NCBI GenBank assembly: GCA_002305925.1
Contig: DBRL01000014.1
Location: 34,402 to 98,401 of the forward strand
Origin: Candidatus Peregrinibacteria bacterium UBA1369
Lineage (GTDB): Bacteria; Patescibacteriota; Gracilibacteria; UBA1369
Reading direction: 5' to 3'
DNA length: 64,000 nucleotides
Under the pieces are notes generated by a model. It was not told the DNA's origin, did not search any database, and was given only the letters and a program-made list of their open reading frames with translations. Shown piece after piece: positions 5,611 through 64,000 of the stretch (positions are counted from its first letter, which is position 1; every line of letters starts with the position of its first letter). The position numbers and the translations under genes were made by a program.

Positions 5611-5619
5611 CAAAAAAAC

Positions 5620-46271: not shown

Positions 46272-47234
46272 ATGCAACGAACCGCTGAAAGCGTTAGCCC
46301 AATGCATCCCGACAAAATGTGCGACAGAATATCGGACGCGATTCTTGACGCCTATCTCAAGGAAGACAGGAACTCGCGCTGCGCCATTGAAGTCATGGGC
46401 GGACACGAACTCATCCAAGTGATGGGCGAAGTCACATCAACCGCAAAACCAAATATCCGAGAAATCGTCCGCAGGATCGCTGGCAACCTCGAATGCAATA
46501 TTCACCTTGTCACGCAATCTCCTGAAATAGCAAAAGGCGTCGACGAGGGCGGAGCTGGCGACCAAGGAATCATGGTCGGCTACGCCTGCAATGAAAATGA
46601 AGCGCTTATCCCGCAAGAACAATATCTCGCGCGAAGCCTTTGCAAGCACCTGTACGAACTGCACCCAGACGACGGCAAAACCCAGATCACCTTAGCTGAT
46701 GATGGCAAAGTCGCGGTGGTCATAGCATCTTGGCGCAATATCACTTCGGCTAAGCTCTACAAGGAAATCATGCTCTGGGTGGAAAAAGAAAAAATCACTT
46801 TCGTGAAGAACGCGCAGATCACGATGAATTCAGCTGGCGACTGGGAGAAAGGAGGCTTTGAAGCCGATACTGGGCTAACAGGCCGAAAGATCGTAGTCGA
46901 TGCCTATGGAAGCCGCGTGCCAGTTGGCGGCGGAGCCTTCTCGGGCAAAGACGCCACAAAGGTCGACCGTTCAGGAGCTTATAAAGCCAGACAGGAAGCT
47001 GTAAGGCTCCTCAAGGAAAGGAGCGCCAAAGAAGTAACCGTGTTCGTCGCCTACGCGATTGGACAGGAAAAACCAGTGCAAGCGACCGCGATTATCGACG
47101 GTAAAGAGGAAGAGCTCGACTTAGAGCGATTCACACCGCAAGCGATCATCGAGGTTCTTGAGCTTAATCAGCCCATCTATGAGCAAACCGCCGAATGGGG
47201 TCATTTCGGCAACGGCTTTAGGTGGGATTATTAA
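46272..47234 (+). CDS. metK: compact S-adenosylmethionine synthetase (phage-encoded)
   Basis: 320 aa. MHPDKMCDRISDAILDA, GAGDQGIMVGYA, GLTGRKIVVDAYG and GGGAFSGKDATKVDRSGAY retain all MetK signature blocks. Confidence 0.85.
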   Translation: MQRTAESVSPMHPDKMCDRISDAILDAYLKEDRNSRCAIEVMGGHELIQVMGEVTSTAKPNIREIVRRIAGNLECNIHLVTQSPEIAKGVDEGGAGDQGIMVGYACNENEALIPQEQYLARSLCKHLYELHPDDGKTQITLADDGKVAVVIASWRNITSAKLYKEIMLWVEKEKITFVKNAQITMNSAGDWEKGGFEADTGLTGRKIVVDAYGSRVPVGGGAFSGKDATKVDRSGAYKARQEAVRLLKERSAKEVTVFVAYAIGQEKPVQATAIIDGKEEELDLERFTPQAIIEVLELNQPIYEQTAEWGHFGNGFRWDY

Positions 47235-50356: not shown

Positions 50357-50399
50357 GCTAAGCCTATAATCAAGCAAATATCGGAAACCAAAGTCTTAA

Positions 50400-50442
50400 A
50401 GACCATTTGCCCGCAAAAACGGGCGTCGCATGGTCTTTTTTT
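50400..50442 (+). terminator. intrinsic terminator separating the replication and methylase/packaging modules
   Basis: AGACCAT...(inner GCCCG-caaaaa-CGGGC)...ATGGTCT followed by T7. Confidence 0.7.
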
Positions 50443-50454
50443 AATTTTATCCCT

Positions 50455-51711
50455 ATGAAAATCGAACAAGTAAACATCGAACAACTCATCTTCGCGGACT
50501 ACAACCCGCGAGCCTCAACCGAAAAGGAAGAGCAAGAACTCAAGAAATCCATTGAGCGCTTTGGCTTCGTGGAGCCAGTTATCGTAAACAGCGCCGAGAA
50601 CCGTAAGAACATTATTATCGGCGGACACTTCCGTGTGCGCATGGCAAAGAAAATGGGCATCAACGAAGTGCCCGTGCATTACATCAAAATAACAGACGTT
50701 CAAAAGGAGAAAGAACTCAACCTACGTCTCAATAAAAACTTGGGACACTGGGATATGGATTTACTCGCAAACTTCGACGAAGAGATGCTTCTCGACGTCG
50801 GTTTTGATTCTTCCGAGATAGATGCGCTTTTCCTGAACCTTGATCCAGACGACAAAGACGACGAAGTGCCCGAACTCCCAGACACCGCAGTATCAAAACA
50901 CGGTGAAATTTATCTGCTCGGCGAACATCGGCTCATGTGCGGAGACGCTACGAGCAAAGACGATGTTGCCAAACTCATGAACAACCAGAAAGCCGACATG
51001 GTATTTACCGATCCGCCTTACAACGTGAACTACAAAGGCACGGGCGAAAAGACTAAAAACCACATCAAGAACGACAACATGAGCGATGATGCCTTCATGG
51101 ATTTTTTAACAAAATCATTCCAGCGTTACCGCGAGTCAATGAAAGGCGGAGCTGGCATGTATGTCTTCCATAGCTCATCAACGCAAAGACAATTCGAGGG
51201 CTCACTTGAGAAAGCAGGCTTTGAAGTGAAAAACCAACTCATCTGGAATAAGCCATCAAGCGCGCTCGGTTGGGGTGATTATCGCTGGAAGCACGAACCG
51301 TTCTTCTACACGGGACTCAAGGGCGAAAAGATTCAGTTTTACGGCGACCGCTCCCACTCCACCGTCTGGGACTTCCAGAAATCGGAAAAGGAATTGCTCG
51401 CATGGGCTCAGCGCATGAAGCGGTATGAGCAGCAAGGAAAAACAACGGTGTGGAGTATGTCGCGCAGCAATGTGCAGGAATACGTTCACCCGACACAAAA
51501 ACCCGTGGAGCTCGTCTCTTACGCCATCGTAAATAGCAGCAAGTCAGGTGATATCGTGCTCGACCTGTTTATGGGCTCGGGCTCGGCTCTGATTGCCTGC
51601 GAGAAAACACACCGCGTGTCTTACGGCATGGAACTCGACCCGAAATACGTCGACGTGATCGTAAAACGCTGGGAAGACTTCACTGGCAAAAAGGCCAAAA
51701 AATGCCCCTAA
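50455..51711 (+). CDS. ParB-like nuclease domain fused to a beta-class N6/N4 DNA methyltransferase
   Basis: N-terminal ParB/Srx pattern (ADYNPR...PVIVN...IIGGHFR). Methylase motifs VFTDPPYNVNY and LDLFMGSGSALIACE. Confidence 0.85.
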   Translation: MKIEQVNIEQLIFADYNPRASTEKEEQELKKSIERFGFVEPVIVNSAENRKNIIIGGHFRVRMAKKMGINEVPVHYIKITDVQKEKELNLRLNKNLGHWDMDLLANFDEEMLLDVGFDSSEIDALFLNLDPDDKDDEVPELPDTAVSKHGEIYLLGEHRLMCGDATSKDDVAKLMNNQKADMVFTDPPYNVNYKGTGEKTKNHIKNDNMSDDAFMDFLTKSFQRYRESMKGGAGMYVFHSSSTQRQFEGSLEKAGFEVKNQLIWNKPSSALGWGDYRWKHEPFFYTGLKGEKIQFYGDRSHSTVWDFQKSEKELLAWAQRMKRYEQQGKTTVWSMSRSNVQEYVHPTQKPVELVSYAIVNSSKSGDIVLDLFMGSGSALIACEKTHRVSYGMELDPKYVDVIVKRWEDFTGKKAKKCP

Positions 51712-51758: not shown

Positions 51759-52109
51759 ATGCAAGGCAAGAAAACCACAATTCGAGACAAAAAACGGTTC
51801 CTTGAGGCGCTGCAACGCCGCAAAGGGATCGTTACGCTTGCCTGCAAGGAAGTGGGCATAAGCTCGATGACCTTTTACCGATGGCAAAAGGACGATCCTG
51901 ATTTTTACGAGAAGTCTGAGGAAATCCGATACGTCGAAATCGGAATTATCGCCGAAGACAGATTAGCGGAAGCCATCATCGTAAACAAAGACATGAACAT
52001 GGTGCGTTTCTACCTGCAGACCAGAAACCACAAATACATGATGAAGCAGCAACTCCAGTTTGAAGACCCGACTGCAGAACTCGCCAAACTCTTATCACAA
52101 GAAGAATGA
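51759..52109 (+). CDS. terminase small subunit (HTH)
   Basis: 116 aa. LACKEVGISSMTFYRWQKDDPDF. Overlaps the large subunit start. Confidence 0.65.
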   Translation: MQGKKTTIRDKKRFLEALQRRKGIVTLACKEVGISSMTFYRWQKDDPDFYEKSEEIRYVEIGIIAEDRLAEAIIVNKDMNMVRFYLQTRNHKYMMKQQLQFEDPTAELAKLLSQEE

Positions 52110-53488
52110 TCATAGACCTGCCAAAAACATATCGCGGGCTGAACTTGTTTGGGGAGAAATACTTCAAACGGCCGTTCACGGAATACCAACGGACAATCGC
52201 CGAGCAGATTCTCCGCACTGTTTTTGTTGGCGGCGGTGAAGAGGTATTTATCGAAGTATCAAGGCAAGCAGGAAAAACAACCGCTGTCGTGGACGCGATC
52301 GCATATCTCATGACGTTCGCACACCACTTCTTCCCAACACCCTTATCCATCGGCATATTCGCTCCTCAAAAAGAACAGGCGAAGACGGACTTCGACAGAC
52401 TCAAAGATAACCTGAGAATCCTGAAAGAAGTCTTCCGTCTCGACTTCGAAGAATCAAATGGGACAACGCTAAAACTTGGAAACGGCAATGTCATTTACTG
52501 TTTCTCGCTGGCTCCAACCTCGCACCTTGAAAGTAAATCGCTCCATTTGGCCGTGATTGAAGAGGCTCAAAAGATTGATGACGAGAAAGCCAAAAATGAA
52601 GTATTTCCAATGCTCGCTTCAACCAATGGCAGCAAGATATTCATCGGCTCTGGCGGATATCAGCTGTGCAATTTTTACCGAGGAATCGAGAACAACAAAA
52701 ACGTCTTCAAGTACGACTACAAGCGAGTGATTGCCGATAAAGAAAAACTGCATGCAAAAACCAAGAATCCGCTGCACCTCAAATACAAGGACTTCATCGA
52801 AGGCGAAAAGGAACGCTACCGCGAAGACAGCGACTACTTCCAGACACAGTATGCGCTGGAATGGAAGATCGGACGCGGAATGCTCGTGACCAAGACGGAA
52901 CTGGAAAAACTGGGACGCAAATACATCGTCAAGCTGCCATACGAAAATCCAGTCTATGTCGGCTGGGACGTGGCCAAGGAGCAGGACGAAAGCGTGGTCA
53001 CGGTGATCGGCTGGGATGAAGAACTGAAAAAGTACAAGGTGCTGTGCTGGCTTGCGATGAAGGGTGACGACTATACCGAACAGGTGGAAATCGTGGCGAA
53101 GGAACTTACTAAATTTAAGCACGTCATGAAGGTGTGCATCGATGCGACAGGCGTCGGCGATCCCGTGGTCGACAACTTCAAAAAACAGACCAGATACAAC
53201 ACCGAACCCGTGAAATTCAGTCTGCAAAACAAGGACACGCTCTACAAGAACCTTATCAAAGTCCTGCGCGACGAAGAACTCGCGTACCAAGAAGACCACA
53301 AATACACACCGAAATTCGAAAACCAAATGCTTGAAATGATCAAGGAATACAAGGGCGAATTCCTGTCCTGCCATCACCCAGACAAAGCGGGGGCGCATGA
53401 CGACTTTCCCGACTCACTCGCCCTCGCACTGTACAAGGCAAGAAAAATCACCGACGTGAACCTCAACCGTCACGATCTCGGACTTTAA
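52106..53488 (+). CDS. terminase large subunit
   Basis: Walker A VSRQAGKTTAV, Walker B LAVIEEAQ, and C-terminal RNase-H-like acidic residues (GWDVAKEQDESV; CIDATGVGD; AHDDFPDSL). Confidence 0.8.
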   Translation: MIIDLPKTYRGLNLFGEKYFKRPFTEYQRTIAEQILRTVFVGGGEEVFIEVSRQAGKTTAVVDAIAYLMTFAHHFFPTPLSIGIFAPQKEQAKTDFDRLKDNLRILKEVFRLDFEESNGTTLKLGNGNVIYCFSLAPTSHLESKSLHLAVIEEAQKIDDEKAKNEVFPMLASTNGSKIFIGSGGYQLCNFYRGIENNKNVFKYDYKRVIADKEKLHAKTKNPLHLKYKDFIEGEKERYREDSDYFQTQYALEWKIGRGMLVTKTELEKLGRKYIVKLPYENPVYVGWDVAKEQDESVVTVIGWDEELKKYKVLCWLAMKGDDYTEQVEIVAKELTKFKHVMKVCIDATGVGDPVVDNFKKQTRYNTEPVKFSLQNKDTLYKNLIKVLRDEELAYQEDHKYTPKFENQMLEMIKEYKGEFLSCHHPDKAGAHDDFPDSLALALYKARKITDVNLNRHDLGL

Positions 53489-53506
53489 TCACTTAATTAA
53501 AATCAT

Positions 53507-54922
53507 ATGAGCGACATCACAATGCAATTTCCGACCAACGAAGACTTCAACCGCGTGGCCAAACTGAACAATTACTACAACGTGTTCAAAGGGCTGCACA
53601 GCAAGGTTTTCAAACTCAAAAGCTACTTCGAGGAAGACAGTAAGAAAAAGACGCTGCTTTATCTCGCATACAATGTCGGCCAGATCATATCGCTGACAGC
53701 TGCTGATTTCCTCTTCGGAGAGCAATTGAAAATCAAAACCAACGAATCGGAAGACCAAAAGCCGACGGAAGACAAAATCAATGCCATTATTCAAAACAAT
53801 TACCTCGACGAAAAGCTATACCAAAGCGCCGTAATGCAGGACGTGGCTGGATTCACAGTCTTTGCAGTGCGACAAAAGGATAAGACGGCTGTAATTGAGG
53901 AAATACCATACGACAACTACTACCCAGACTTCACAGGTGTACGGCTTGGCGAAGAGCCGCGCCAGATCGTGATAGCTTCCTACGTTGACCTCGTGAATCC
54001 GAAGAACCAAAAGAAAGAAACCTTCCTCTACAAGCAAATTCACAAACTGGAAAACAGCAAAGGCAAAATTATGCATGAACTTTGGACGACAAGTCCAGAA
54101 ATGAAGCAATCGGAAAAAACCGAACTTTCGCTCTTCAGCACCGAACTGCCAGAGGAAGAAACGACGGAACTCAATTATCTCCCGATTTTCCAGATCGATA
54201 ACTTTAAGACCGTAAAGGAACGCTTTGGCATCTCGACCTATGAAAGCGTGATGAACTTGTTTGAGGAAATAAACGACCGCATCACGCAAATCTCGGTGCA
54301 ACTCATTAAGCACCTGAATTCAAAGGTTGCCGTCGGCGAGGGCGTGCTCAGCAAGAAGGGCGAAATGGATAGCTCACAGGACATCTTCCTCGTTGAAAAA
54401 GGCGACATCGTGCCGCAGTACATCACCAATTCCAACCCGTTGATCGAAGAAGGATTCAAGCAGATTGAAGGGCTTATAAGGCAAATTTGCACGGTTACGC
54501 AAACACCCGTGTCATTCTTGGGACTGGAAGATAAAGGCGGAGTGGAAAAGGTCGAAACAGCCAAACTCCGCATGGCTGCGTTTCTCAAAAAGATCAAGCG
54601 CAAGCAACGTGCTTATGAAGCAAAGCTGATCGATATTTTGAAGACAGCATTGTTCTTCGAGGGTGCAAAGAAATTCCCAGACAGCCTAGATATCACGTTC
54701 ACTTGGGATTTGGGATTGCCTCGCGATTTATTCACTGAAGCCCAAACGCATCAGATCATGGTCGAGAGCGGAATTGAGAGCAAAGAGACAGCCATTCGTG
54801 AACTTAAAGGAATTGATGGACAGACTTTGCAAAACGAACTTGAAAAGATTGCAAAGCAGGATGAGATGTCTGGTTATCAGATGGATCAATCCCGCAAACA
54901 GGTTCCTGATATCAGTATTTAA
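53507..54922 (+). CDS. portal protein (SPP1 gp6-like by size and position)
   Basis: 471 aa, directly after TerL and before the MuF-like gene. Confidence 0.65.
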   Translation: MSDITMQFPTNEDFNRVAKLNNYYNVFKGLHSKVFKLKSYFEEDSKKKTLLYLAYNVGQIISLTAADFLFGEQLKIKTNESEDQKPTEDKINAIIQNNYLDEKLYQSAVMQDVAGFTVFAVRQKDKTAVIEEIPYDNYYPDFTGVRLGEEPRQIVIASYVDLVNPKNQKKETFLYKQIHKLENSKGKIMHELWTTSPEMKQSEKTELSLFSTELPEEETTELNYLPIFQIDNFKTVKERFGISTYESVMNLFEEINDRITQISVQLIKHLNSKVAVGEGVLSKKGEMDSSQDIFLVEKGDIVPQYITNSNPLIEEGFKQIEGLIRQICTVTQTPVSFLGLEDKGGVEKVETAKLRMAAFLKKIKRKQRAYEAKLIDILKTALFFEGAKKFPDSLDITFTWDLGLPRDLFTEAQTHQIMVESGIESKETAIRELKGIDGQTLQNELEKIAKQDEMSGYQMDQSRKQVPDISI

Positions 54923-54933
54923 CCCGATACCAT

Positions 54934-55125
54934 ATGAGCTACAACACCTATCCTAACCCTTACCAGAAACACCTCTCTTCCGAAGAGGTGCTGCAGAAAC
55001 GCCTCGAGAATATCGACCGCAACTGGCTGAAATACGCAAAGGTCGCATTAATTTTCCATGCGCTGCTGCTGATATTTTTATTCACGGTCATCGTTACCGT
55101 GAGATTCGCATTCCTAATTTTTTAA
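54934..55125 (+). CDS. small membrane protein
   Basis: 63 aa with one C-terminal TM helix (VALIFHALLLIFLFTVIVTV). Confidence 0.4.
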   Translation: MSYNTYPNPYQKHLSSEEVLQKRLENIDRNWLKYAKVALIFHALLLIFLFTVIVTVRFAFLIF

Positions 55126-55127
55126 TT

Positions 55128-55898
55128 ATGGCCAACGAAACAAAACTCATAAACATTTACCGCCGAGCAGCGCAGCAGCTGAGAACAACCGTCAGACGTG
55201 CTGATCCGAGAAAGCCAATCATCCTGATTCGGAAAGTGATTATGGGAGACATCAACAAAATTGCCTCTGATTTGGAACGCGAGACAAAGAATTGGCTCGT
55301 GGTCGAGATTCCGCAGGAATACAAGCGTGGCAGTCAGCAAGCGGTAGCGGATGCGAGCAAACTTGGGCTAACACTTGATAAAACAGGTTTCGGGCAAGTC
55401 CACAAAGAAGCTATTCAAGCATTGACCGAAGATGCCTACCTCGACTTTGCCGCTGGTATTGAAGGAGTACGGCGTGCAGGCCGTGGATTTGTAAGCGAGA
55501 TTGTGAAAAAGAAAATCAATGAGCGGATTGTTTCGGGACAGCTCGAAGGAAAAGCACTCGAAACGGTAAAGAAAGAAGTAAAACAGCTCGTGGATGACAC
55601 GGGATTTACTGCACTGGTGGATCGAGGCGGAAAACACTGGAGTATCGACAGCTATGCAGAAATGCTTGTACGCACCCATGTAATCAAGGCAAACGGTGAA
55701 GGCACGAAGAATAGACTGCTTTCCAATCAAGTCGATCTAGTCGAAATATCCCAGCACAATTCGTCGTGCCCGATTTGCCAACCATACGAAGGCCAAGTTT
55801 ACAGCCTTACTGGAAAAACTGAGGGCTACGATAAGGCTCCAGAATTACCGATTCATCCAAACTGCAGGCATACATATTTACCGTACATTGAGGACTAA
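55128..55898 (+). CDS. head morphogenesis protein (Mu F / SPP1 gp7 family)
   Basis: C-terminal CPICQPYEGQVY...LPIHPNCRHTYLPY is the family signature. Confidence 0.8.
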   Translation: MANETKLINIYRRAAQQLRTTVRRADPRKPIILIRKVIMGDINKIASDLERETKNWLVVEIPQEYKRGSQQAVADASKLGLTLDKTGFGQVHKEAIQALTEDAYLDFAAGIEGVRRAGRGFVSEIVKKKINERIVSGQLEGKALETVKKEVKQLVDDTGFTALVDRGGKHWSIDSYAEMLVRTHVIKANGEGTKNRLLSNQVDLVEISQHNSSCPICQPYEGQVYSLTGKTEGYDKAPELPIHPNCRHTYLPYIED

Positions 55899-55989
55899 TT
55901 TCGGGGTTATTGGTCTTGTAAAAAAATACCAATTTGGTACAATCAACATAGAAAGTTTTGATTATAATTAATTGCCAACCAAATCAGGT

Positions 55990-56898
55990 ATGTTTTACAA
56001 AATTAATAACTCCCAGCTCGAGGAGATCGGCAAACGGGAAATACTCGAAAGAGACGTTCAACGGCTCGTTGAGAGTAACCTAGATTTGCTGTTCGGGCTT
56101 CGTTTTGTCGCAAGCGAATTATCAATCGAGAATGTTCGTTTTGATACGCTGGCATTCGATGAGGAAAACAATGCGCCAGTGATCATTGAATTCAAGAAAA
56201 CCTTTGAAAAGAGCCTTTTTGACCAAGGTTTGGAGTATTTGAATATCCTTTTTTCAAGAAAAGCAGATTTTTCCATTACACTTCATAAAAAAATTGGCAT
56301 TACACCTGATCCAGAAAAAATATCGTGGGAAAATGCCAGAGTAATTTTCGTCGGCAATCGTTTTTCGGAACGCCAAAAGAGAGCCGTCTCATTTCAAGGT
56401 CTACCAATTGAATTATGGAGTTTTGAATGGCTCGAAAACGACTTCTTCAAGCTCGATAGAGAGACTTTAATTAAAGAAGCCAGCCTTTCAGAATTTGCGA
56501 AATCAATTGGCAGTGAATCAGTTGCTATCGAAAAAGTCAGCCGAGAGATCAAGGACTATGAGCGCGATTATCATAAGGACGACGCAAATCCAAAAATCTG
56601 GGAACTTTTTGAAAAACTCGAAAGCTTAATAAAAGACTTGGGAGAATTTGAGACGCGTTATCGCAAGCTATATATTGGATTTTACGGCAAACAATCTTTT
56701 TGTGTCGTCAAGCTATTGAAATCAAAGCTGCAGGTTGAATTTGGAAAAGAAAAAGACGAAGGAGTATTTAAGGGTATGAATGGCGTGCACGATATCACTT
56801 CCAAAAAATGGAACCATGCATTCATGTTTGAGGTTGAATCCGAGAAGGATTTGGACAACCTAATGCTGATATTAAAGAAAGCCGCAGAGCTTCTTTAA
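55990..56898 (+). CDS. NucS-like PD-(D/E)XK nuclease domain plus DUF5655-like C-terminal domain
   Basis: ERDVQRLVESNLDLLF...VRFDTLAFDEENNAPVIIEFKK (D...ExK, NucS/DUF91-like). The C-terminus KLYIGFYGKQSFCVVKLLKSKLQVEF...VESEKDLDNLMLILKKA resembles DUF5655. Confidence 0.5.
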   Translation: MFYKINNSQLEEIGKREILERDVQRLVESNLDLLFGLRFVASELSIENVRFDTLAFDEENNAPVIIEFKKTFEKSLFDQGLEYLNILFSRKADFSITLHKKIGITPDPEKISWENARVIFVGNRFSERQKRAVSFQGLPIELWSFEWLENDFFKLDRETLIKEASLSEFAKSIGSESVAIEKVSREIKDYERDYHKDDANPKIWELFEKLESLIKDLGEFETRYRKLYIGFYGKQSFCVVKLLKSKLQVEFGKEKDEGVFKGMNGVHDITSKKWNHAFMFEVESEKDLDNLMLILKKAAELL

Positions 56899-56913
56899 TA
56901 GATTTGTAATCTA
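56899..56913. promoter_or_regulatory. palindrome TAGATTtgtAATCTA upstream of the XRE controller gene (candidate C-box/operator, or a weak terminator)
   Basis: Perfect 6-bp arms, 14 nt before ATG 56927 and immediately after the upstream stop. Confidence 0.35.
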
Positions 56914-56926
56914 TTACTTTTTATTT

Positions 56927-57145
56927 ATGGCCAGTCAAAAAAACGAACCCACAATCGGGCAAAAAATAAGAAAGCTTCGCTTGGCTAAAGAAATGACACA
57001 GGAAGCCTTGGCCAGAAAAGCTGATATTCCTTATACCACCCTCGTGAAAATCGAGAGTGACGCCGTTAAAAATCCTTCCATCGAAACAGTTTCTAAATTG
57101 GCAGCTGGATTGGAAATAACGGTAGATGAACTTATTAACTCGTAA
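56927..57145 (+). CDS. XRE-family HTH protein, probable R-M controller (C) protein
   Basis: 72 aa. IGQKIRKLRLAKEMTQEALARKADIPYTTLVKIESD. The stop is 3 nt before the mod ATG. Confidence 0.7.
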   Translation: MASQKNEPTIGQKIRKLRLAKEMTQEALARKADIPYTTLVKIESDAVKNPSIETVSKLAAGLEITVDELINS

Positions 57146-57148
57146 TTT

Positions 57149-58666
57149 ATGCCTACACTCAATTGGATCGGAAAAGAAGCAGTAGTGAACCACGATAAGG
57201 AGGTTCCTTTTCGCCTTCTCCGTAAAGTGAAGTCTGCTTCTGTAGGCGACAACTCTCAAAATCTCATCATTCACGGGGACAATCTTGAGGCGCTCAAAGC
57301 GTTGATGCCGTACTACGGTGGCAAAGTGAAATGCATCTATATTGATCCTCCGTACAACACGGGAAATGAAAACTGGGTTTACAACGACAAGGTAAACTCA
57401 CCAAAGATCAAGAAGTGGCTTGGGAAAGTGGTTGGTCGTGAGTCGGAAGACCTCTGTCGTCATGATAAGTGGCTCTGCATGATGTATCCGAGATTAAAAA
57501 TGTTGCATGATCTTTTGAGTGAAGATGGAGTGCTGATGATGAGCATTGATGATTTTGAGATTACCCACCTGAGGAATATCGCTGATGAGGTATTTGGGGA
57601 ACAAAATTTCCTTACTCAAGTTATCTGGCACAGAAAGCGCGGAAAAGATAATTCGGCTAAGTTTTTTAGCAGAGTTCACGAATATATTGTTATCTACGCA
57701 AAGGACATATCTAAAGTATCCATTAATAGGATCGAACTCGAGGAAAGAACAAAGAAAGCCTATACAAATCCTGATAATGATCCTAGGGGTGCATACCGAA
57801 AATTGGGAGCGTGGGCACGCGGAACTCAAGGGGGTTCTCGCTACGCTTTTACATCTAAAGATGGCCGCAATTTCCCTGAACGACTCTGGCTGGTCAATAA
57901 GGAAACGATGCTTAAGTACGATCAAGAAAATCGTCTTTGTTTTGTTGGAGATAAGGTTTATAGGAAGCTCTTTCTTTCAGAGCATAGTGGTGCGATACCA
58001 GAAACTATTTGGTTGGATGCTTCAAATGTAGCCAATGCATCAGATGAAATAAAATCCATTTTTGGTAACCAGATATTTGAAACCCCCAAACCTATTCCAC
58101 TTATCAAAAGGCTGATTCAGATTTCAACAACTGATAGCGATATAGTTCTTGATTCTTTTGCAGGTTCAGGCACTACAGGTCACGCTGTTCTTGATCTTAA
58201 CAAAGAAGATGGTGGCAGCCGTAAATTCATTCTTATTGAAATGGAAGACAAGGTTGCAAAGGATGTGACAGCTGAAAGGGTCAAGCGTGCAATAAAAACC
58301 AATGAGTACAACGACGGTTTCGAGTATTGCGAGCTCTCAAAGCCACTCTTCAACGAAGAGGGGCACATTGAAGAAGAGTGCGACTTCAATCAGTTCGCTA
58401 CTTATATTTACTTTACCGAGACGCAAACAAACATTGATCCAAAAGGAATTGATGGCAATTTTATCGGTGAAAAGACAGACACCGAGTATTACTTGATTTA
58501 TAAGGAGAAAGGCAAAAACGTTTTGGATAAATCATTCCTCAAAAAGGTGCGCAAGAGTGATGCCAAAAAAATCGTCTATGCAGATTTTTGCGAATTGGAC
58601 GAAAAAATCCTCGAAGATACTGGCATTGTCTTCAAGCAAATCCCTTACGAGGTCAAAGTTTACTAA
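57149..58666 (+). CDS. mod: Type III restriction-modification methyltransferase (Mod)
   Basis: Beta-class motif order: IYIDPPYNTGNENWVYND (motif IV) near the N-terminus, a variable middle region, then VLDSFAGSGTTGHAV (motif I). Followed by res. Confidence 0.85.
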   Translation: MPTLNWIGKEAVVNHDKEVPFRLLRKVKSASVGDNSQNLIIHGDNLEALKALMPYYGGKVKCIYIDPPYNTGNENWVYNDKVNSPKIKKWLGKVVGRESEDLCRHDKWLCMMYPRLKMLHDLLSEDGVLMMSIDDFEITHLRNIADEVFGEQNFLTQVIWHRKRGKDNSAKFFSRVHEYIVIYAKDISKVSINRIELEERTKKAYTNPDNDPRGAYRKLGAWARGTQGGSRYAFTSKDGRNFPERLWLVNKETMLKYDQENRLCFVGDKVYRKLFLSEHSGAIPETIWLDASNVANASDEIKSIFGNQIFETPKPIPLIKRLIQISTTDSDIVLDSFAGSGTTGHAVLDLNKEDGGSRKFILIEMEDKVAKDVTAERVKRAIKTNEYNDGFEYCELSKPLFNEEGHIEEECDFNQFATYIYFTETQTNIDPKGIDGNFIGEKTDTEYYLIYKEKGKNVLDKSFLKKVRKSDAKKIVYADFCELDEKILEDTGIVFKQIPYEVKVY

Positions 58667-58677
58667 CTCTTACCACT

Positions 58678-60942
58678 ATGAATTTAAAACGCTATCAACA
58701 AAAAGCACTCGATACCTTGAAGGATTACCTCAAGGAATCAGGTCGTGTCGGCGGCAAGTACGCCTACATGGGCATTACCAACCAGCCATATAATTCGGAC
58801 TTCTTCGGTGAGATTCCGTTCGTATGCATGAAAATCCCAACGGGCGGTGGTAAGACGCTGGTGGGATGCAGTGCTGTTGCGGAAATTATGAATACTGCTC
58901 TTCAGCACAAAATGGAGCGTGGCATTGTCATGTGGTTTGTACCATCCGAAGCGATCAAGACGCAGACACTCAAGAAGTTCAAAGACCGCAATGACTGGCA
59001 TCGCCAAGTGCTCGATGAAGCATTCCAGAACGGTGTTCGTATTTTTTCCAACGAAGAAGCTCTTCGCATTCGCAAGGAGGACGTAGAAGACAATCTTTGC
59101 ATTATCGTTTCCAGCCTTGATGCTTTCCGCAAAGAAAAGACTTTGCAGAACAAGTATAAGGTATATCAGGAAAACGGGTCACTCCTCTCTCACTTTGAAA
59201 ACCTTGGTGACGTTAGCGGGCTTGAGCTGGACGAACACAAAACCATCATCAACTCGTTGGCCAACGTGGTACGTATTAGCAATCCGCTCGTGGTGATCGA
59301 TGAAGGTCACAAGACGAAGACACAGCTCTCCATCGACTTCCTCAAGGAACTCAATCCGTCGTTCATCATTGAATACACCGCCACTCCACGTAGCGGTAGC
59401 AATATCTTGGTGGACATTTCCGCCGCCGAACTTAAAGAGGAAGAAATGGTAAAGATTCCGCTAGTACTGGAAAGTGCCGTGCAGTGGAACAATTCCGTGG
59501 CTCGCGGTATTGAAAAGCGCGATGAACTGGAAAAGGAAGCGAAGAAGCTCAAGGGTGAATATATCCGACCCATTGCTTTGATTCAGGCACAGCCAAAAAG
59601 CAAGACCAACCCAAATATTACCGTTGAACAGATCAAGGAATACCTGCTTGCGGCAAAGATTTCGGAAGATGAAATTGCTATTAAGACTTCCGAACTCAAC
59701 GAACTTGAGGGCGTGGATTTGTTCAGCAAGAAGTGCAAAATCCGCTATATCATCACCGTGAGTGCTTTGGCGGAAGGCTGGGACTGCTCCTTTGCCTATG
59801 TGCTAGTGTCCGTGGCAAATGTCGGTGCGAAAATTGCCGTTGAACAGATCATCGGCCGAATCATTCGCATGCCGTATGCGAAACGGAAAGAAAATGAGCA
59901 TCTCAATCGCTGCTATATCTTCGCATCGGCTAAGAATTTTAATGAAGCAGCTGGGCAAATCATTTCTGGATTGGAAACCAACGGTTACAGCCGTGCTGAC
60001 TTGTTGAACGCATCGCAAAAGGAACAAAAATACGAATTGGAAATTGGGCGTGCCGTGAAGAAAGACTTTGCTGCTCCAATGGTTGCTCTTGATGGCGAGA
60101 AACTTTCCTTTGAGGACTTGATCAGCGGCGGTTTTGACCTTTCCAAGGAAGACCCCGCCTTTGATTTTGAGATTCACTATGACAATGACGGTCGCGCTGT
60201 TATTGATATTAAAGATGACAAGTGGATCAAGGGGGCGCAGCAGATGCTCCGACTCACCTACAAGGACAAGAATTTTACCAAGGAAGAATTGGTGCAGTGG
60301 CTGGATCGCAAAATGAGATTCATCATTATTCCGAAGGCGGACAAGGTCGCGTTCATTCAGAAAGCCCTTGACCTTCAGTTGAAGAAACATACTCTCGCAG
60401 AACTATGCGTGAACCGCTATTTGCTGTTATCGAGGATTGATGAAGTGATCAATGACCGCATGCAGGCGTATGCCAAAAAGCGGTTTGATCAGTACATGAA
60501 AAAGGGAGAGATTGGCGTGAAAGCGTTTGATATCTTCCCCGAAACGATCACCATCGGACAGGAAACTCCGCAGGACTTCAACAAGAATTACTATGAGAAA
60601 ATCGATAAGCTGAACAAGGAGGAGCTTTCATTCGTGGAACGCTTAGACTTGGAGACCTTGCCCAATATTGAGTTCTGGATCAGAAATCGTGAGAAGAAAG
60701 ACCCTTTCTACCTTCAAGGCTGGAAAAAGGGTAAGTTCTACCCTGACTTCATCGCTATAACTAAAAAGGGTGCTGTCATTGCATTGGAATGGAAAGGTGA
60801 AGACCGTATCAGCAATGAGGATACCGAGTACAAGGTGGAGGTTGGTGATCTTTGGGCAAACCTTGGCAAGGGCAATCTCCACTTTTTCCTCGTTCATAAC
60901 GGGAATGTGGAGAGCGTGTTAAGTGCCCTTAAAAATCTATGA
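58678..60942 (+). CDS. res: Type III restriction enzyme Res subunit (SF2 helicase plus C-terminal PD-(D/E)XK)
   Basis: MKIPTGGGKTLVG, VVIDEGHK, EYTATPR, GWDCSFAYVL and QIIGRIIRMP. C-terminal YPDFIAI...ALEWKG nuclease motif. ATG 58678 is preferred over the tracked start at 58588. Confidence 0.85.
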   Translation: MNLKRYQQKALDTLKDYLKESGRVGGKYAYMGITNQPYNSDFFGEIPFVCMKIPTGGGKTLVGCSAVAEIMNTALQHKMERGIVMWFVPSEAIKTQTLKKFKDRNDWHRQVLDEAFQNGVRIFSNEEALRIRKEDVEDNLCIIVSSLDAFRKEKTLQNKYKVYQENGSLLSHFENLGDVSGLELDEHKTIINSLANVVRISNPLVVIDEGHKTKTQLSIDFLKELNPSFIIEYTATPRSGSNILVDISAAELKEEEMVKIPLVLESAVQWNNSVARGIEKRDELEKEAKKLKGEYIRPIALIQAQPKSKTNPNITVEQIKEYLLAAKISEDEIAIKTSELNELEGVDLFSKKCKIRYIITVSALAEGWDCSFAYVLVSVANVGAKIAVEQIIGRIIRMPYAKRKENEHLNRCYIFASAKNFNEAAGQIISGLETNGYSRADLLNASQKEQKYELEIGRAVKKDFAAPMVALDGEKLSFEDLISGGFDLSKEDPAFDFEIHYDNDGRAVIDIKDDKWIKGAQQMLRLTYKDKNFTKEELVQWLDRKMRFIIIPKADKVAFIQKALDLQLKKHTLAELCVNRYLLLSRIDEVINDRMQAYAKKRFDQYMKKGEIGVKAFDIFPETITIGQETPQDFNKNYYEKIDKLNKEELSFVERLDLETLPNIEFWIRNREKKDPFYLQGWKKGKFYPDFIAITKKGAVIALEWKGEDRISNEDTEYKVEVGDLWANLGKGNLHFFLVHNGNVESVLSALKNL

Positions 60943-63900
60943 TGAATATGACTCCGACTGATCACAATTATCTACGAATTCAATTTCGTTTGAAAATCCA
61001 TGAAAAAAGTGGGTCGGAGTTTCAGTCGTTCTTTGAATCTATCGCCGAGAAAGCGATTACAGGGTTTCAAAAAATCCGTCCATATGGCAATCAGGGTGAT
61101 GGAGGCAATGATGGCTATGTTCAAAGTGAAGGATCATATTACCAAGCATACGCACCATCCTATCCACAAGAGAAAGATGCTGACGCTGCAAGAAAGATGA
61201 AGGATGATTTTACAAAACTTCAAGCATCTGGATGGGATCAGATATCAAGCATCAAGAAGTACAGCTTTGTTTTTAATGACAAAGGAAATGGCGTTTCAAT
61301 AGAGATCGAGAAAGCCCTCGCTGAACTTAGAAGTGCCAATTCTACTATTGAGTTCTCGCTTCTTCTGCCGAAAGATTTAGAGGTGTTGTTTTTCACCCTA
61401 GATCAGGCCACGGTTTTGTCTCTTGGATTTGATATCAATGCCACCAAAGCTATCGACATTGCCCATGAGCTTCTTAATAAATTAGAGATAGAGATTGATC
61501 GAGATAACGGCAGAAATGTTTTGAAAAGTCTTGAAAGCTTAGCAACCATTATTTCCGATCTAAGCGATGATGGAGTAACCATTCTGTATGGCTTGCTAGA
61601 GGCAAGAGCGTTGCAAAAAGTAGAGAGGTTCGCTGAAGCCAAAAGTAAGTTTGAAGGTCTCGCGACGAAATATCCCAAAGACCCCCGTGCCACCCTGTAT
61701 TTGGCCGAACACTATTTGAATAATGAAGACTTCGAAAAAAATAAAGAACTACTAGAAAAGGCAGAAAAGATTGACTCTGCGCACTGGCTTCTGGCTCTCG
61801 AAAAACTAATTCGTACATACAGGTTGGGAGAAAGTATTGATATCTCCAAGATTGATGAGAACTCATTTCCTTCCGATCCTCGTATCAAATCGAATTTCTA
61901 TCGCCTTCACGCTTTTTTTTACGACAGAGCAAATGACTATAAGATGGCGGATAGCTTTATTGAAAAAGCAATCTCCTCCAACCCAGATAAATTTAACAAC
62001 TACAACGCAAAAATTTCATTGCTAATTTCACGTGCACATAGAGAAAAAGACCGAGAAACTGTTGCCAAGCAATTGAATAATGTACTGAAAGAATTTGAAA
62101 TTCTTGAGCAGAAAGTGCTTGAATGGGGTGGTCTCAGCGATCGAAATAGAGCGGTACTGAATGTAAAAAAACTGCACATTTGCTTTGCGACGGATGAAGC
62201 CAGTGAAATTGAACGCATCGCTCCTCAGACTTTTGAATTGTTGATGAGTTGCTACTTTGATTCGGTAATTGATGAGCTGATGGCTGAACTCCTCATACCG
62301 ATTTCACTCCCCGATAATGATTTCAGTAGACTGTTGGAATATTTAAAAAAAGCTGACAATTCGTATTCAAGCGATTTGGGCAACGTACTTTTTGTTCAGT
62401 TTTTATACCGCGATAAGTTATTTACCGATGGCCTTTCGTTCTTCACGGAAACAAAACATCAAGAATTGACTGATTTGGTGAACAATATTCAGAATAAACA
62501 ACATGATGCCGTACTTTCATACTTGAAAGATCATATTCGTTTTGCTGTGGGTTTAGCAAATACCGCCAAAGATTTCCCAGAACTAAGAAAGAAAATCATC
62601 GAGTCGTTGCCAAGCGATGGAACAATTGAAAAAGAAAAACTGTTATTACTCTTAAATTATGACCAAAAACAAACGGATGAAGCCTTCTCCATTATCCAAC
62701 AGATGGATTTGTCGCACCTAGGTTATTTTGAATGCAAGCCTATTTTGCGGGTTGCCAAAGAAAAGGAAGCTTGGGATTTTGTAATTGTAATCCTTCAGAG
62801 ATTGATGAGTTTTGAGAAGGACAAGAAAGCCTTATTGCAACTAAAGTTGGATTTGTTCAATGCCTATCTTCACCTCGAGAAATTTCCAGAACTGATTGAA
62901 CTTGGTGAGAGAATTTTAGATGAAGAAAATGATCGAGGACTGTTAGAGGATCAAGGCTGGGAATGGTTGATTGGTCAGACTGCCAATGCATGTCTTAAGC
63001 GGAATGAACAAGCGAGAGCTCTTGCGTTGATAGAGAAACATAAGAAGCTTTCTAAAACGTTTGAATATAAAGCTTTTGTTGAAGCTCCTGTGTACATAGG
63101 AAATAAGGATGCAAATAAGGCATTGGAATCAATAGTAGAAGGTATAAAGACTCTAAAAAATCCTTCACCAGAACAATATGGTCGCCTTTTTTGGTCATTC
63201 CATGAAATCAGTAATTTAATTGATTTAAAACTTGATTCTTTTAAAGAAGTAGCAGATGGATATTTTGTAAAACTTAGAGATCAGGAGAGGTGGTATTACT
63301 TAGGGAGTGGCGATGAACTTGATGCAACAAAAATTGGGGTTAGCGATTCTCGATACAATCAACTTCTAGGAAAAAAAGTTGGGGACAAAATTACATTTGA
63401 AAACAAATACAGTTCTTCATCTCCTGAATACACAGTCGAAGCAATTTTCCCAATCGGGCATTATATACATTGGCAATGCTGGCATCACGCGAACAAACTC
63501 TCCATTGAGAATCGATGGGATGTCATGAGGGTAATTGAAGTCCCAACAACGGGTGAAGCCTCTGACTTTCGTTTTATCACTGCATTTTTAGAAGACGAAC
63601 ACAAAAAGCGTGCTGATTTTTTTGAAATGTACTGCAAGGACAACCTTCCATTTGCGATGCTTGCAGTCAACGAAGGTGGAACAACAAATGCTTTGGGGAT
63701 TATTGCAGCGGAAGGCCGCGGATACGTAAAATTTAGCACTGGCGCTCAGATTGAAATTGATGAGCAAAAGAAGATAGCCGAAGGAATTATCAACGGCGAT
63801 TTATTTTACATCGACGGAGTATCAGCTCTAGTTCTTTCTGAAACTGGATTATTAGAGCAAATATACAGCTATCTTCCAAACATAAAAATTCCACAATCAG

Positions 63901-64000
63901 TTATTAGCTTTTTGTGGGAAGTGAAAGATAAGTTCGCTTATAAATCTGGCCAAAATGGTAGTCTTGGTTTTGCTCAAGGGAAACTTCGTTACTCCAGTAT
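60939..64000 (+). CDS. giant multidomain protein, 3'-truncated by the window edge: Mrr-like N-terminal motif, TPR-like array, GreA/GreB C-terminal-like segment, start of a PIN-like domain
   Basis: All 1020 codons were hand-translated with no stop. Absent from the ORF track because it is open-ended. The ATG overlaps the res TGA (ATGA). Motifs: RPYGNQGDGGNDGY...YYQAY; TPR-like helices; IGVSDSRYNQLLGKKVGDKITFENKY...YTVEAIFPI; GDLFYIDGVSALVLSETGLL. Confidence 0.8.
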   Translation, partial: MMNMTPTDHNYLRIQFRLKIHEKSGSEFQSFFESIAEKAITGFQKIRPYGNQGDGGNDGYVQSEGSYYQAYAPSYPQEKDADAARKMKDDFTKLQASGWDQISSIKKYSFVFNDKGNGVSIEIEKALAELRSANSTIEFSLLLPKDLEVLFFTLDQATVLSLGFDINATKAIDIAHELLNKLEIEIDRDNGRNVLKSLESLATIISDLSDDGVTILYGLLEARALQKVERFAEAKSKFEGLATKYPKDPRATLYLAEHYLNNEDFEKNKELLEKAEKIDSAHWLLALEKLIRTYRLGESIDISKIDENSFPSDPRIKSNFYRLHAFFYDRANDYKMADSFIEKAISSNPDKFNNYNAKISLLISRAHREKDRETVAKQLNNVLKEFEILEQKVLEWGGLSDRNRAVLNVKKLHICFATDEASEIERIAPQTFELLMSCYFDSVIDELMAELLIPISLPDNDFSRLLEYLKKADNSYSSDLGNVLFVQFLYRDKLFTDGLSFFTETKHQELTDLVNNIQNKQHDAVLSYLKDHIRFAVGLANTAKDFPELRKKIIESLPSDGTIEKEKLLLLLNYDQKQTDEAFSIIQQMDLSHLGYFECKPILRVAKEKEAWDFVIVILQRLMSFEKDKKALLQLKLDLFNAYLHLEKFPELIELGERILDEENDRGLLEDQGWEWLIGQTANACLKRNEQARALALIEKHKKLSKTFEYKAFVEAPVYIGNKDANKALESIVEGIKTLKNPSPEQYGRLFWSFHEISNLIDLKLDSFKEVADGYFVKLRDQERWYYLGSGDELDATKIGVSDSRYNQLLGKKVGDKITFENKYSSSSPEYTVEAIFPIGHYIHWQCWHHANKLSIENRWDVMRVIEVPTTGEASDFRFITAFLEDEHKKRADFFEMYCKDNLPFAMLAVNEGGTTNALGIIAAEGRGYVKFSTGAQIEIDEQKKIAEGIINGDLFYIDGVSALVLSETGLLEQIYSYLPNIKIPQSVISFLWEVKDKFAYKSGQNGSLGFAQGKLRYSS

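What the first reader, a model, noticed from the sequence alone, without database searches (positions are those of the whole stretch)
55899..64000. AT-rich five-gene defence cassette sitting where scaffold and capsid genes are expected in the prophage head module
TerS-TerL-portal-small TM-MuF (51759-55898) is the standard start of a head module and is normally followed by scaffold and major capsid genes. Here the next 8 kb or more encode a NucS-like/DUF5655-like nuclease, an XRE controller, Type III Mod and Res, and the giant TPR/PIN-like protein.

The genes are separated by 3-28 nt or overlap. They are preceded by a 73-nt AT-rich spacer with TGgTACAAT (55935-55943) and TATAAT (55963-55968) promoter-like elements.

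Spot counts of single 60-nt lines give 23/60 G+C at 57601 and 62401, against 24-32/60 in phage lines 45001, 49801 and 53701, and 30-42/60 in host lines 2281, 20401 and 31501. The cassette is therefore at or below the low end of the phage composition. It looks like moron-type cargo, i.e. a prophage-borne superinfection-exclusion island.
Basis: partly seen in the sequence, partly recalled or inferred. Interest (0 to 1): 0.6.

Follow-up and report, generated by a model that had tools for sequence, protein, structure and literature searches.

The report
Defence cargo island in CPR prophage
A prophage of a tiny candidate-phyla-radiation bacterium carries a 9-kb imported block of anti-phage genes in a fixed "cargo slot" between its packaging and capsid genes. 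Every related phage fills that slot with different cargo, so this is a clear but not unprecedented case of a phage-borne defence hotspot.

Summary
I read 20 kb past the window end. The fifth gene ends at 64772 (1277 aa). After a 255-nt spacer, the scaffold, SU10-type major capsid, adaptor, neck, tail and tape-measure genes resume.

The block has 40.9% G+C, against 47-48% for the phage backbone and 51.3% for the host. It has no transposase and no flanking repeats.

It holds three independent modules:
- PDC-S18, an untested PADLOC candidate: a PD-(D/E)xK nuclease with DUF5655.
- An XRE regulator followed by an intact Type III Mod and Res.
- A nuclease-fold/TPR/GreA/B-C/PIN ("TGP") protein, a predicted family with one tested relative, Bab/Agp.

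About 17 distinct relatives of this phage, mostly labelled as Peribacteria, Peregrinibacteria and Gracilibacteria, all carry different low-GC cargo at the same MuF-scaffold junction. The cargo includes Type I, II, IIS and III restriction-modification (R-M) systems, CBASS, PARIS and PDC-S06, and also copper resistance and a two-component system. No relative has an empty slot.

The slot lies between two late operons. A conserved promoter-leader-terminator element precedes each operon. Defence activity and expression in the lysogen are inferred, not shown. This is a new member of a known kind.

The parts
50392..50442 (+). First copy of the conserved late-operon leader: AGTCTTAAAGACC, a variable inner hairpin, then GGTCTTTTTTT. 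A promoter-like TAGGCTAAGCCTATAAT lies upstream. It sits directly before the ParB-MTase/TerS operon. Context, not cargo.
   Evidence: It folds as a hairpin of -19.3 kcal/mol, z -4.4, followed by a U-tract.
51759..55898 (+). Backbone packaging operon: TerS, TerL, portal, a 63-aa membrane protein and MuF/minor capsid protein (256 aa). MuF is full length for this lineage.
   Evidence: PHROGs and Pfam. MuF is 256-261 aa and ends ...PYIE in all relatives.
55916..55943 (+). Sigma-70-like promoter at the left edge of the slot: TTGTAA, 16 nt, then TGgTACAAT (extended -10). A remnant of an upstream terminator hairpin lies at 55899-55915.
   Evidence: The same motif (TCTTGwAAA...TTTGGTAnnAT) occurs in 8 distinct junction types, all headed by XRE or PDC-S18. 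This is a consensus match only; no transcription data.
55990..56898 (+). PDC-S18 candidate defence gene (302 aa). N-terminal PD-(D/E)xK motif (FDTLAFD...IIEFKK); C-terminal DUF5655.
   Evidence: PADLOC PDLC04945, E 1.3e-66, full length. PF18899, 40.4 bits against a cut-off of 24. Sequence.
56896..56916 (.). Perfect 9+9 palindrome TAATAGATT-TGT-AATCTATTA, 10 nt upstream of the XRE start. Candidate operator (C-box-like).
   Evidence: 1 match, 0.01 expected by chance. A related palindrome, GTAATAGA..TCTATTAC, lies before the XRE of L012.
56927..57145 (+). 72-aa XRE-family helix-turn-helix regulator, in the position of an R-M controller protein.
   Evidence: PF01381, E 1.7e-14. PADLOC Control_protein, E 1.4e-10. 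Weak match to C.Esp1396I (3clc), E 8.5e-4.
57149..58666 (+). Type III methyltransferase Mod (505 aa). DPPY at residues 66-69, FAGSGTT at 337-343, target-recognition domain between them.
   Evidence: PADLOC MTase_III, E 1e-171, full length. The domain swap relative to L022 is shown.
58678..60942 (+). Type III restriction subunit Res (754 aa). Helicase motifs GGGKT, DEGH, TATP and QIIGRIIR; C-terminal nuclease motif YPDF...LEWKG.
   Evidence: PADLOC REase_III, E 7e-88. PF04851. Sequence. 94% identical to the 754-aa gene in L022.
60939..64000 (+). TGP protein (1277 aa). It continues to 64772, beyond the window. Domains: N-terminal restriction-endonuclease-fold domain (about 1-165), TPR array (about 215-750), GreA/B-C domain (about 775-840), PIN domain (957-1091). 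Its start overlaps the Res stop (ATGA). The cargo ends at about 64845. It is followed by a conserved promoter, then leader AGTCTTAAAGACC (64921) with its terminator (to about 64978), then the scaffold gene at 65027.
   Evidence: PF20698, 30.1 bits against a cut-off of 27.8. AlphaFold models and Foldseek. 110 uniform-length homologues. Downstream genes. Right boundary.

Best explanation
The region from about 55,900 to about 64,850 is an 8.9-kb block of horizontally exchanged defence genes. It runs about 850 nt past the window end. It occupies a lineage-conserved cargo slot of a temperate siphovirus of about 42 kb. That phage is integrated next to tRNA-Ala in a Peribacteria-type CPR bacterium. 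The slot lies between two late transcription units: ParB-MTase/TerS/TerL/portal/MuF, and scaffold/capsid/tail.

The cargo holds three separable modules:
1. PDC-S18, a PD-(D/E)xK + DUF5655 candidate nuclease.
2. An XRE regulator followed by a complete Type III R-M system. Mod methylates the lysogen and prophage DNA; Res cuts unmethylated incoming DNA.
3. A single-gene TGP protein. [quoted passage not shown]

Inferred expression logic: a sigma-70-like promoter just after MuF drives the cassette in the lysogen. The strong, conserved leader terminator before the scaffold gene stops read-through into the capsid genes.

Inferred origin: cargo is exchanged by recombination between conserved flanks and between modules, not by transposition.

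Shown: gene content, intact motifs, composition, boundaries, and variability of the slot among relatives. Inferred: expression in the lysogen, anti-phage activity, and how the modules work.
For: - Capsid and tail genes resume after the block.
- Composition is an outlier against both backbone and host.
- Homology with relatives breaks at the MuF stop and resumes about 180 nt before the scaffold gene.
- Seven complete slots measure 5.1-10.1 kb and none is empty. About 17 distinct junction types carry different cargo.
- Mod, Res and PIN catalytic motifs are intact.
- Mod shows a target-recognition-domain swap against an otherwise 93-100% identical relative, as expected for an R-M system under diversifying use.
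- TGP domains are verified by Pfam and by fold.
- TGP homologues are standalone in unrelated genomes, as reported for the family in PMC8195603.
- A TGP protein confers T5 resistance in E. coli (bioRxiv 10.1101/2024.11.07.622273).
- There are no terminal repeats and no mobility gene in the block.
- The terminators fold strongly.
- The same junctions appear in independent assemblies.
Against: - There are no expression data.
- Promoter calls are consensus matches, and the scan found fewer such sites than in shuffled sequence.
- PDC-S18 is only a candidate. I found no paper naming it.
- In the TGP N-terminal domain the canonical catalytic Lys is a Tyr across the family (QVY), and its fold matches are weak (E 4e-3).
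- Res has backbone-like GC3 (0.57), so the block is itself a mosaic.
- Some relatives carry non-defence cargo (metal resistance, kinases), so the slot is not dedicated to defence.
- The genome is a metagenome-assembled genome (91% complete, 3% contamination).
Confidence: 0.8

Rival explanations
1. The cassette mainly serves the phage rather than the lysogen. As an addiction module, R-M would kill cells that lose the prophage. Alternatively it is a lytic-cycle weapon: Res would degrade host or competitor DNA, and TGP would shut down host transcription.
For: R-M systems can act as post-segregational killers (established for Type II systems). The phage also encodes a ParB-MTase and a SAM synthetase, so it invests in methylation. 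The cassette lies between late operons and could be read through during lytic growth.
Against: Post-segregational killing is not established for Type III systems. The same slot in relatives holds CBASS, PARIS and PrrC-like genes, and even copper resistance, which benefit the host cell. The slot has its own promoter-like site and is closed by a terminator, as expected for lysogen-expressed morons.
Confidence: 0.12
2. The five genes form one integrated system. PDC-S18 and TGP would be accessory subunits of the Type III enzyme, so that none works alone.
For: The genes are tightly spaced on the same strand, and Res and TGP overlap by 4 nt. The Mod-Res-TGP trio recurs in L022 with the same overlap. 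TGP also follows a Type II R-M system in L012. PDC-S18 followed by XRE recurs before three different R-M types.
Against: TGP homologues of 41-79% identity stand alone with unrelated neighbours. PDC-S18 precedes Type IIS and Type I/IIG-like systems, and in L045 sits with no R-M system. PADLOC lists PDC-S18 as a single-gene candidate. The modules differ in identity to L022 (66%, 94% and 80%) and in GC3, which points to separate histories.
Confidence: 0.06
3. The block is an assembly or binning artefact, or the prophage ends at MuF and the R-M genes are host DNA.
For: The genome is a metagenome-assembled genome. The block's composition differs from both flanks.
Against: A single 162-kb contig carries host genes, the tRNA-Ala/serine recombinase end, the cassette, and then 19 kb more of phage structural genes. 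MuF-PDC-S18-XRE junctions occur in independent assemblies (L026, L028, L043, L044), and Mod-Res-TGP occurs in L022.
Confidence: 0.02

Closest known systems
Phage- and satellite-encoded defence hotspots (P2/P4 hotspots, Rousset et al. 2022; prophage-mediated defence in mycobacteriophages, Dedrick et al. 2017); lambdoid 'morons'.
   Same: A fixed position between conserved backbone genes holds variable, compositionally foreign cargo, mostly defence genes. The cargo has its own promoter and terminator and differs between close relatives.
   Different: The host lineage is CPR/Patescibacteria. The position is between MuF and the scaffold gene, inside the morphogenesis region. Slots are never empty in the sample. 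A semi-conserved head (PDC-S18 and/or XRE) is followed by interchangeable R-M types. Some relatives carry metal-resistance or signalling cargo instead.
Type III restriction-modification systems (EcoP15I, EcoP1I)
   Same: Mod-then-Res gene order. Mod has motif IV, then the target-recognition domain, then motif I. Res has an SF2 helicase core and a C-terminal PD...ExK nuclease. EcoP1I is likewise prophage-borne (phage P1).
   Different: Res is short: 754 aa, against about 970 aa recalled for EcoP15I. It has no detectable sequence match to any solved structure. An XRE gene precedes mod, and a TGP gene is overlapped onto the res stop.
TPR-GreA/B-C-PIN (TGP) conflict proteins (Kaur et al. 2021, PMC8195603); Agp of the Bab/Agp system (bioRxiv 10.1101/2024.11.07.622273)
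   Same: A constant TPR + GreA/B-C + PIN core with a variable N-terminal effector. Restriction-endonuclease-type N-termini are listed among the 13 known variants. The genes are mostly standalone. Bab/Agp also sits in prophage defence hotspots.
   Different: This protein has no amyloid motif and no Bell-domain partner; the effector is fused. The family is strikingly uniform in length (1270-1290 aa). The canonical nuclease Lys is replaced by Tyr. No member of this sub-family has been tested.
PADLOC candidate PDC-S18, DUF5655 proteins, and the Shedu SduA nuclease
   Same: Full-length match to the PDC-S18 profile. N-terminal PD-(D/E)xK motif. Found in defence contexts.
   Different: Shedu membership fails: SduA_C scores 22.8 bits, below the cut-off of 27. 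No experimental evidence for PDC-S18 was found.
Lambda PR'-tR' late leader with Q antitermination (analogy, from my own knowledge)
   Same: A promoter is followed within about 80 nt by a strong intrinsic terminator, directly upstream of late genes.
   Different: There are two copies per genome, one before each late operon. The 5' box AGTCTTAAAGACC is invariant. No Q-like gene was identified. Function is untested.

Membership tests
Type III R-M system | Mod: N6/N4 methyltransferase with motif IV (DPPY) before the target-recognition domain and motif I (FxGxG) after it | tested here: met
   PF01555, E 7e-42. PADLOC MTase_III, E 1e-171 over residues 1-504. DPPY at 66-69 and FAGSGTT at 337-343, with a variable middle.
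Type III R-M system | Res: SF2 helicase-like ATPase plus a C-terminal PD-(D/E)xK nuclease, encoded directly after mod | tested here: met
   PF04851. PADLOC REase_III, E 7e-88. Motifs GGGKT, DEGH, QIIGRIIR and YPDF...LEWKG. The gap after mod is 11 nt.
Type III R-M system | ATP-dependent cleavage between inversely oriented unmethylated sites; hemimethylation by Mod | not testable with these tools
   Needs biochemistry or a methylome.
R-M controller (C) protein | Small HTH protein encoded at the head of the R-M operon, with a palindromic C-box upstream | tested here: inconclusive
   A 72-aa XRE protein; PADLOC Control_protein, E 1.4e-10; a perfect 9+9 palindrome 10 nt upstream. However, XREs 64-84% identical to this one head Type I, Type IIS and even non-R-M cargo (APH/MFS in L008) in relatives. 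It may therefore be a regulator of the slot rather than of this enzyme.
TGP (TPR-GreA/B-C-PIN) proteins | TPR array | tested here: met
   TPR_16, TPR_19, TPR_14 and TPR_8, E 1e-5 to 2e-3. Each is below its own Pfam cut-off, but they are consistent with one another, and the precomputed TPR families on the homologues agree.
TGP (TPR-GreA/B-C-PIN) proteins | GreA/B C-terminal (FKBP-like) domain before the PIN domain | tested here: met
   Model of residues 761-1277 (pLDDT 89). Foldseek matches to Gfh1, GreA, GreB and Rnk: probability 1.00, 75-84 columns, 17-24% identity.
TGP (TPR-GreA/B-C-PIN) proteins | C-terminal PIN domain of the PF20698 type with acidic catalytic residues | tested here: met
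   PF20698, 30.1 bits against 27.8, residues 957-1091. Fold matches to 3ix7, SMG6 and VapC. Invariant D in YIDGTSAL and ED in LTEDF.
TGP (TPR-GreA/B-C-PIN) proteins | Variable N-terminal effector; mostly standalone gene | tested here: met
   N-terminal model (pLDDT 87) matches restriction-endonuclease folds weakly: EcoT38I E 4e-3, Can2, Shedu, BstEII. There is a LmuA N-domain match, E 5e-9. There is no conserved neighbour in L016-L021.
PADLOC PDC-S18 | Full-length match to the PDC-S18 profile; DUF5655 | tested here: met
   PDLC04945, E 1.3e-66, residues 8-304 on profile positions 3-300 of 302. PF18899, 40.4 bits against a cut-off of 24.
Shedu (SduA) | SduA_C nuclease domain above the Pfam threshold | tested here: not met
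   PF14082, 22.8 bits against a cut-off of 27, covering only profile positions 4-70 of 159.
Lamassu | LmuA effector together with the LmuB SMC-like ATPase | tested here: not met
   Only the N-terminal domain of TGP matches LmuA (positions 15-130 of 336). There is no SMC-like gene in the cassette.
Prophage cargo hotspot / moron | Conserved flanking backbone genes with different inserts among relatives, and deviant composition | tested here: met
Prophage cargo hotspot / moron | Autonomous expression in the lysogen from its own promoter, ending at its own terminator | tested here: inconclusive
   A conserved promoter-like motif and a strong terminator are present.

The most novel reading that the evidence does not exclude
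This CPR phage lineage maintains a purpose-built cargo bay that is insulated by a promoter and a terminator. A portable head (PDC-S18 and/or XRE) accepts any R-M type. Abortive-infection-type genes such as TGP are translationally hitched to the restriction subunit, so that restriction and an RNA-polymerase-sensing backup work as a two-layer unit. In genome-reduced CPR hosts, such prophage bays would supply most of the cell's defence repertoire. Here the prophage carries two of the genome's roughly three DNA methyltransferases and its only TGP.
Probability: 0.2. Interest if true: 0.65.

Novelty: new member of a known kind. Interest (0 to 1): 0.45.

Why it matters
CPR/Patescibacteria have very small genomes, mostly lack CRISPR-Cas, and are thought to rely on R-M systems (PMC12455944). 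How they acquire and exchange defences is poorly known.

This locus shows one concrete route. A temperate phage lineage offers a fixed slot in which R-M systems of every type, CBASS, PARIS, a TGP protein and untested PADLOC candidates are swapped. So are copper-resistance and signalling genes.

The slot can be used as a discovery device. Unannotated genes found there in relatives (for example the 5-kb cargo of L035, DUF2130, DUF2779 and DUF6119) are candidate defence genes. It also gives natural test material for two untested genes, PDC-S18 and a nuclease-headed TGP.

Tried and rejected
- **Truncated MuF.** Family profiles are longer than this MuF, which suggested the insertion had cut it. Rejected: all relatives have 256-261 aa and the same C-terminus.
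- **Transposon or integrative element.** Rejected: no terminal inverted or direct repeats bracket the block, and it contains no mobility gene.
- **att repeat of the prophage.** No exact repeat of 12 nt or more was found between the tRNA-Ala end and 60-110 kb. This is uninformative, because the integrase is a serine recombinase.
- **Known RNA family for the leader.** Nothing in Rfam.
- **Covariation in the leader.** RNAalifold on the MAFFT alignment of the leaders gave only a trivial 4-bp stem, because the inner hairpins are misaligned. I folded the variants singly instead.
- **Solved structures.** Sequence searches for Res and PDC-S18 gave nothing usable.
- **Literature.** Searches for 'PDC-S18' and 'TPR-GreAB-C-PIN' returned nothing. 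One search failed on syntax.
- **Empty slot.** None found in the viral, genome or metagenome collections.

Full report
**Setting.** The window is C12:34402-98401 of a 1.13-Mb, 19-contig genome. The genome is 91% complete with 3% contamination. Relatives of the phage described here come mostly from genomes labelled Peregrinibacteria, Peribacteria, Gracilibacteria and Uhrbacteria, so the host is a CPR/Patescibacteria bacterium. I fetched 40 kb beyond the finding and analysed the first 20 kb, L001. L001 coordinate = window coordinate minus 54,000.

**Observation.** All five genes are present at the stated places.
- PDC-S18/DUF5655 runs 55990-56898. The listed ORF starts at TTG 55972, but the PADLOC profile aligns from residue 8, so ATG 55990 is the likely start.
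- XRE runs 56927-57145 and Mod runs 57149-58666.
- Res most likely starts at ATG 58678. That gives 754 aa, 11 nt after the mod stop, and matches the gene call in relative L022.
- The giant ORF starts at 60939, overlapping the res stop as ATGA. It ends at 64772, giving 1277 aa.
- The promoter-like strings are at exactly the positions given.
- Upstream, TerS, TerL, portal, a 63-aa protein with a hydrophobic C-terminus, and MuF are confirmed.

**Composition.**
- The block has 40.9% G+C. The phage backbone has 47.0% on the left and 48.3% on the right. Host 9-kb windows average 51.3% (sd 2.8), and only 0.18% of them are as low as the block.
- GC3 is 0.35-0.43 in four of the five cargo genes, against 0.47-0.66 in backbone genes. 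Res, at 0.57, looks backbone-like, so the block is itself a mosaic.
- Tetranucleotide distance from block to backbone is 0.274. No 9-kb backbone piece exceeds 0.133.

**The head module resumes.** After the TGP stop there is a 255-nt spacer. Then follow a 221-aa protein in the scaffold position, an SU10-type major capsid protein (PF17236, E 2e-40), a head-tail adaptor, neck and tail-terminator proteins, a major tail protein and a 789-aa tape measure. G+C and AT skew return to backbone values at once. The left prophage end carries tmRNA, tRNA-Ala and a serine recombinase. Composition suggests the right end lies near window coordinate 84,000. So the R-M genes are inside the prophage, not beyond it.

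**Relatives.** I searched with MuF in viral, genome and metagenome collections, and looked up homologues of the cargo proteins. This gave about 30 loci and about 17 distinct junction types.
- The packaging genes are 58-93% identical to those in the window.
- MuF has the same length and the same C-terminus everywhere, so the insertion has not truncated it.
- DNA homology stops at the MuF stop codon. In the three loci compared (ours, L009 and L012) it resumes about 180 nt before the scaffold gene.
- Seven complete slots measure 5.1, 7.6, 7.8, 9.1 (this one), 9.25, 9.5 and 10.1 kb. None is empty.
- In every relative where it was measured, the cargo has lower G+C than the backbone.

Slot contents differ from one relative to the next:
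- L009: two C5 methyltransferases, a BpuJI-like nuclease, a Ppl-like ATPase and a Cas4-like nuclease.
- L012: XRE, M.HpaII and R.HpaII, a TGP homologue (55% identical) and a DUF2779 protein.
- L013: a Type II R-M system, an EVE-domain protein, PDC-S06 (PrrC-like) and a DUF2779 protein.
- L007: XRE and a Type I R-M system, with a CBASS cyclase, a 1-TM effector and a PARIS AriAB fusion embedded in it.
- L023: XRE, a different Type III system, DUF2130 and an S24 peptidase.
- L043/L044: PDC-S18, XRE, a Type IIS (AlwI-like) R-M system and a 1031-aa AAA_21 protein.
- L042: PDC-S18, XRE, a Type IIG/I-like system, two DUF6119 proteins and Fic.
- Non-defence cargo: CsoR and a copper P-type ATPase (L003, L010); a multicopper oxidase, ArsR and a cation-efflux protein (L025); a histidine kinase and response regulator (L005, L040); an APH-type phosphotransferase, a hydrolase and an MFS transporter (L008).

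**How the block was built.**
- L022 carries Mod-Res-TGP in the same order and with the same 4-nt overlap. It is 79% identical in DNA, and the similarity ends exactly at the TGP stop.
- Protein identities to L022 are uneven: Mod 66%, Res 94%, TGP 80%. Within Mod, residues 1-115 are 100% identical, residues 330-505 about 93%, and the middle target-recognition domain about 30%. This is a typical specificity swap.
- PDC-S18 followed by XRE recurs at 84-86% identity in front of other R-M types. In L045, PDC-S18 sits in another prophage with no R-M system.
- TGP homologues at 41-79% identity stand alone beside unrelated genes.
- The block has no terminal repeats and no mobility gene.

I conclude that the modules are independent and are shuffled by recombination.

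**The modules.**
- *Type III R-M.* Mod has DPPY and FAGSGTT. Res has helicase motifs GGGKT, DEGH, TATP and QIIGRIIR, and a C-terminal YPDF...LEWKG nuclease motif. PADLOC matches are strong. The system looks intact.
- *XRE.* The protein resembles controller proteins. A perfect 9+9 palindrome lies 10 nt upstream of its start. Because similar XREs head cargo of many kinds, I regard it as a regulator of the slot whose target is unproven.
- *The giant protein.* It is a TGP protein. It has TPR matches and a PF20698 PIN domain above the Pfam threshold. A confident model of residues 761-1277 (pLDDT 89) contains a GreA/GreB/Gfh1-type C-terminal domain followed by a PIN fold. The PIN acidic residues are invariant in 37 homologues.
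- *The TGP N-terminus.* Residues 1-215 (pLDDT 87) match restriction-endonuclease folds weakly and match the LmuA N-domain profile. The usual (D/E)xK lysine is a tyrosine in the whole family, with an invariant NDK on the next strand. Nuclease activity is therefore uncertain.
- *What is published on TGP.* Kaur et al. (PMC8195603) described this architecture, including nuclease-type N-termini and standalone genes. They proposed RNA-polymerase docking, transcript cleavage and a backup effector. One TGP protein, Agp, protects E. coli from T5 together with its partner Bab.
- *PDC-S18.* It matches the PADLOC candidate profile over its full length and has a D...EFK nuclease motif. Shedu membership fails the Pfam threshold.

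**Why the site tolerates cargo.** The element AGTCTTAAAGACC, inner hairpin, GGTCTTTTT occurs twice in this phage and in its relatives. One copy lies before the ParB-MTase/TerS operon (50392). The other lies before the scaffold gene (64921). Each is preceded by a promoter-like site. The outer stem is invariant, and the inner stems differ while staying paired. Four variants fold at -19 to -26 kcal/mol (z -4 to -5.8) and are followed by U-tracts. So the late genes form two units, each behind a promoter-proximal terminator. This is reminiscent of lambda PR'-tR', although no antiterminator gene was identified. The cargo lies in the gap between the two units. At the left edge, a conserved promoter-like motif follows the MuF stop in eight junction types, all headed by XRE or PDC-S18. 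The likely logic is lysogen expression from this promoter, ending at the leader terminator. That logic is inferred.

**Genome context.** Beyond the two prophage methyltransferases, the genome has one clear DNA methyltransferase gene and one weak partial match. It has no C5 methyltransferase and only this one TGP. The prophage therefore contributes a large share of the visible defence repertoire.

**Verdict.** Prophage defence hotspots are well known. The TGP family has been described. Type III R-M on a prophage has precedent (phage P1). What is new is the lineage (CPR phages), the position of the slot, its insulation by leader terminators, and the modular head. I rate it a new member of a known kind, of moderate interest.

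Noticed in passing
window 50392-50442, and 64921-64978 (just past the window end; L001:10921-10978): A conserved promoter-leader-terminator element (AGTCTTAAAGACC, variable inner hairpin, GGTCTTTTT) precedes both late operons in this phage and in all relatives examined. The outer stem is invariant and the inner stems differ while staying paired. It may be a regulated (antitermination-type) late switch. It matches no Rfam family.
   Followed up: partly
L003:5849-8967, L010:3348-8075, L025:9899-12663, L005:6724-8575, L008:11114-15372: In some relatives the same slot carries non-defence cargo: CsoR with a copper P-type ATPase; a multicopper oxidase with ArsR and a cation-efflux protein; a histidine kinase with a response regulator; an APH-type phosphotransferase with a hydrolase, an MFS transporter and a methyltransferase.
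   Followed up: partly
L009:17342-18103, L007:19836-20627, L043:18069-18830: A 253-263-aa Cas4-like PD-(D/E)xK gene with backbone-like G+C sits just before the scaffold leader in three close relatives. It is absent from this prophage and from L012.
   Followed up: no
window 60939-61440 (TGP residues 40-120): In the restriction-endonuclease-fold N-terminal domain of the whole TGP sub-family, the canonical (D/E)xK lysine is a tyrosine (GDGGNDG...YYQVY). An invariant N-D-K sits on the next strand. The active site is either relocated or inactive.
   Followed up: partly
window 46272-47234 and 50407-51711; L043:272-1234 and 4442-5698: The phage backbone conserves a SAM synthetase and a ParB-domain N6/N4 methyltransferase, in addition to any cargo methyltransferase. 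This suggests the phage supplies its own methyl donor.
   Followed up: partly
L007-L011 record titles: Near-identical phage modules (81-90% MuF identity) lie in genomes labelled Uhrbacteria, Peregrinibacteria, Francisellaceae and Woesearchaeota. This points to binning or labelling errors in some of these genomes, or to an unusually broad host range.
   Followed up: no
L035:982-6057: A 5-kb slot cargo with no similarity to any cargo protein seen in the other relatives.
   Followed up: no
L045:10001-12950: A 61%-identical PDC-S18 homologue lies between the endolysin and the serine recombinase of a different prophage. That is a second, independent moron position for this gene.
   Followed up: no
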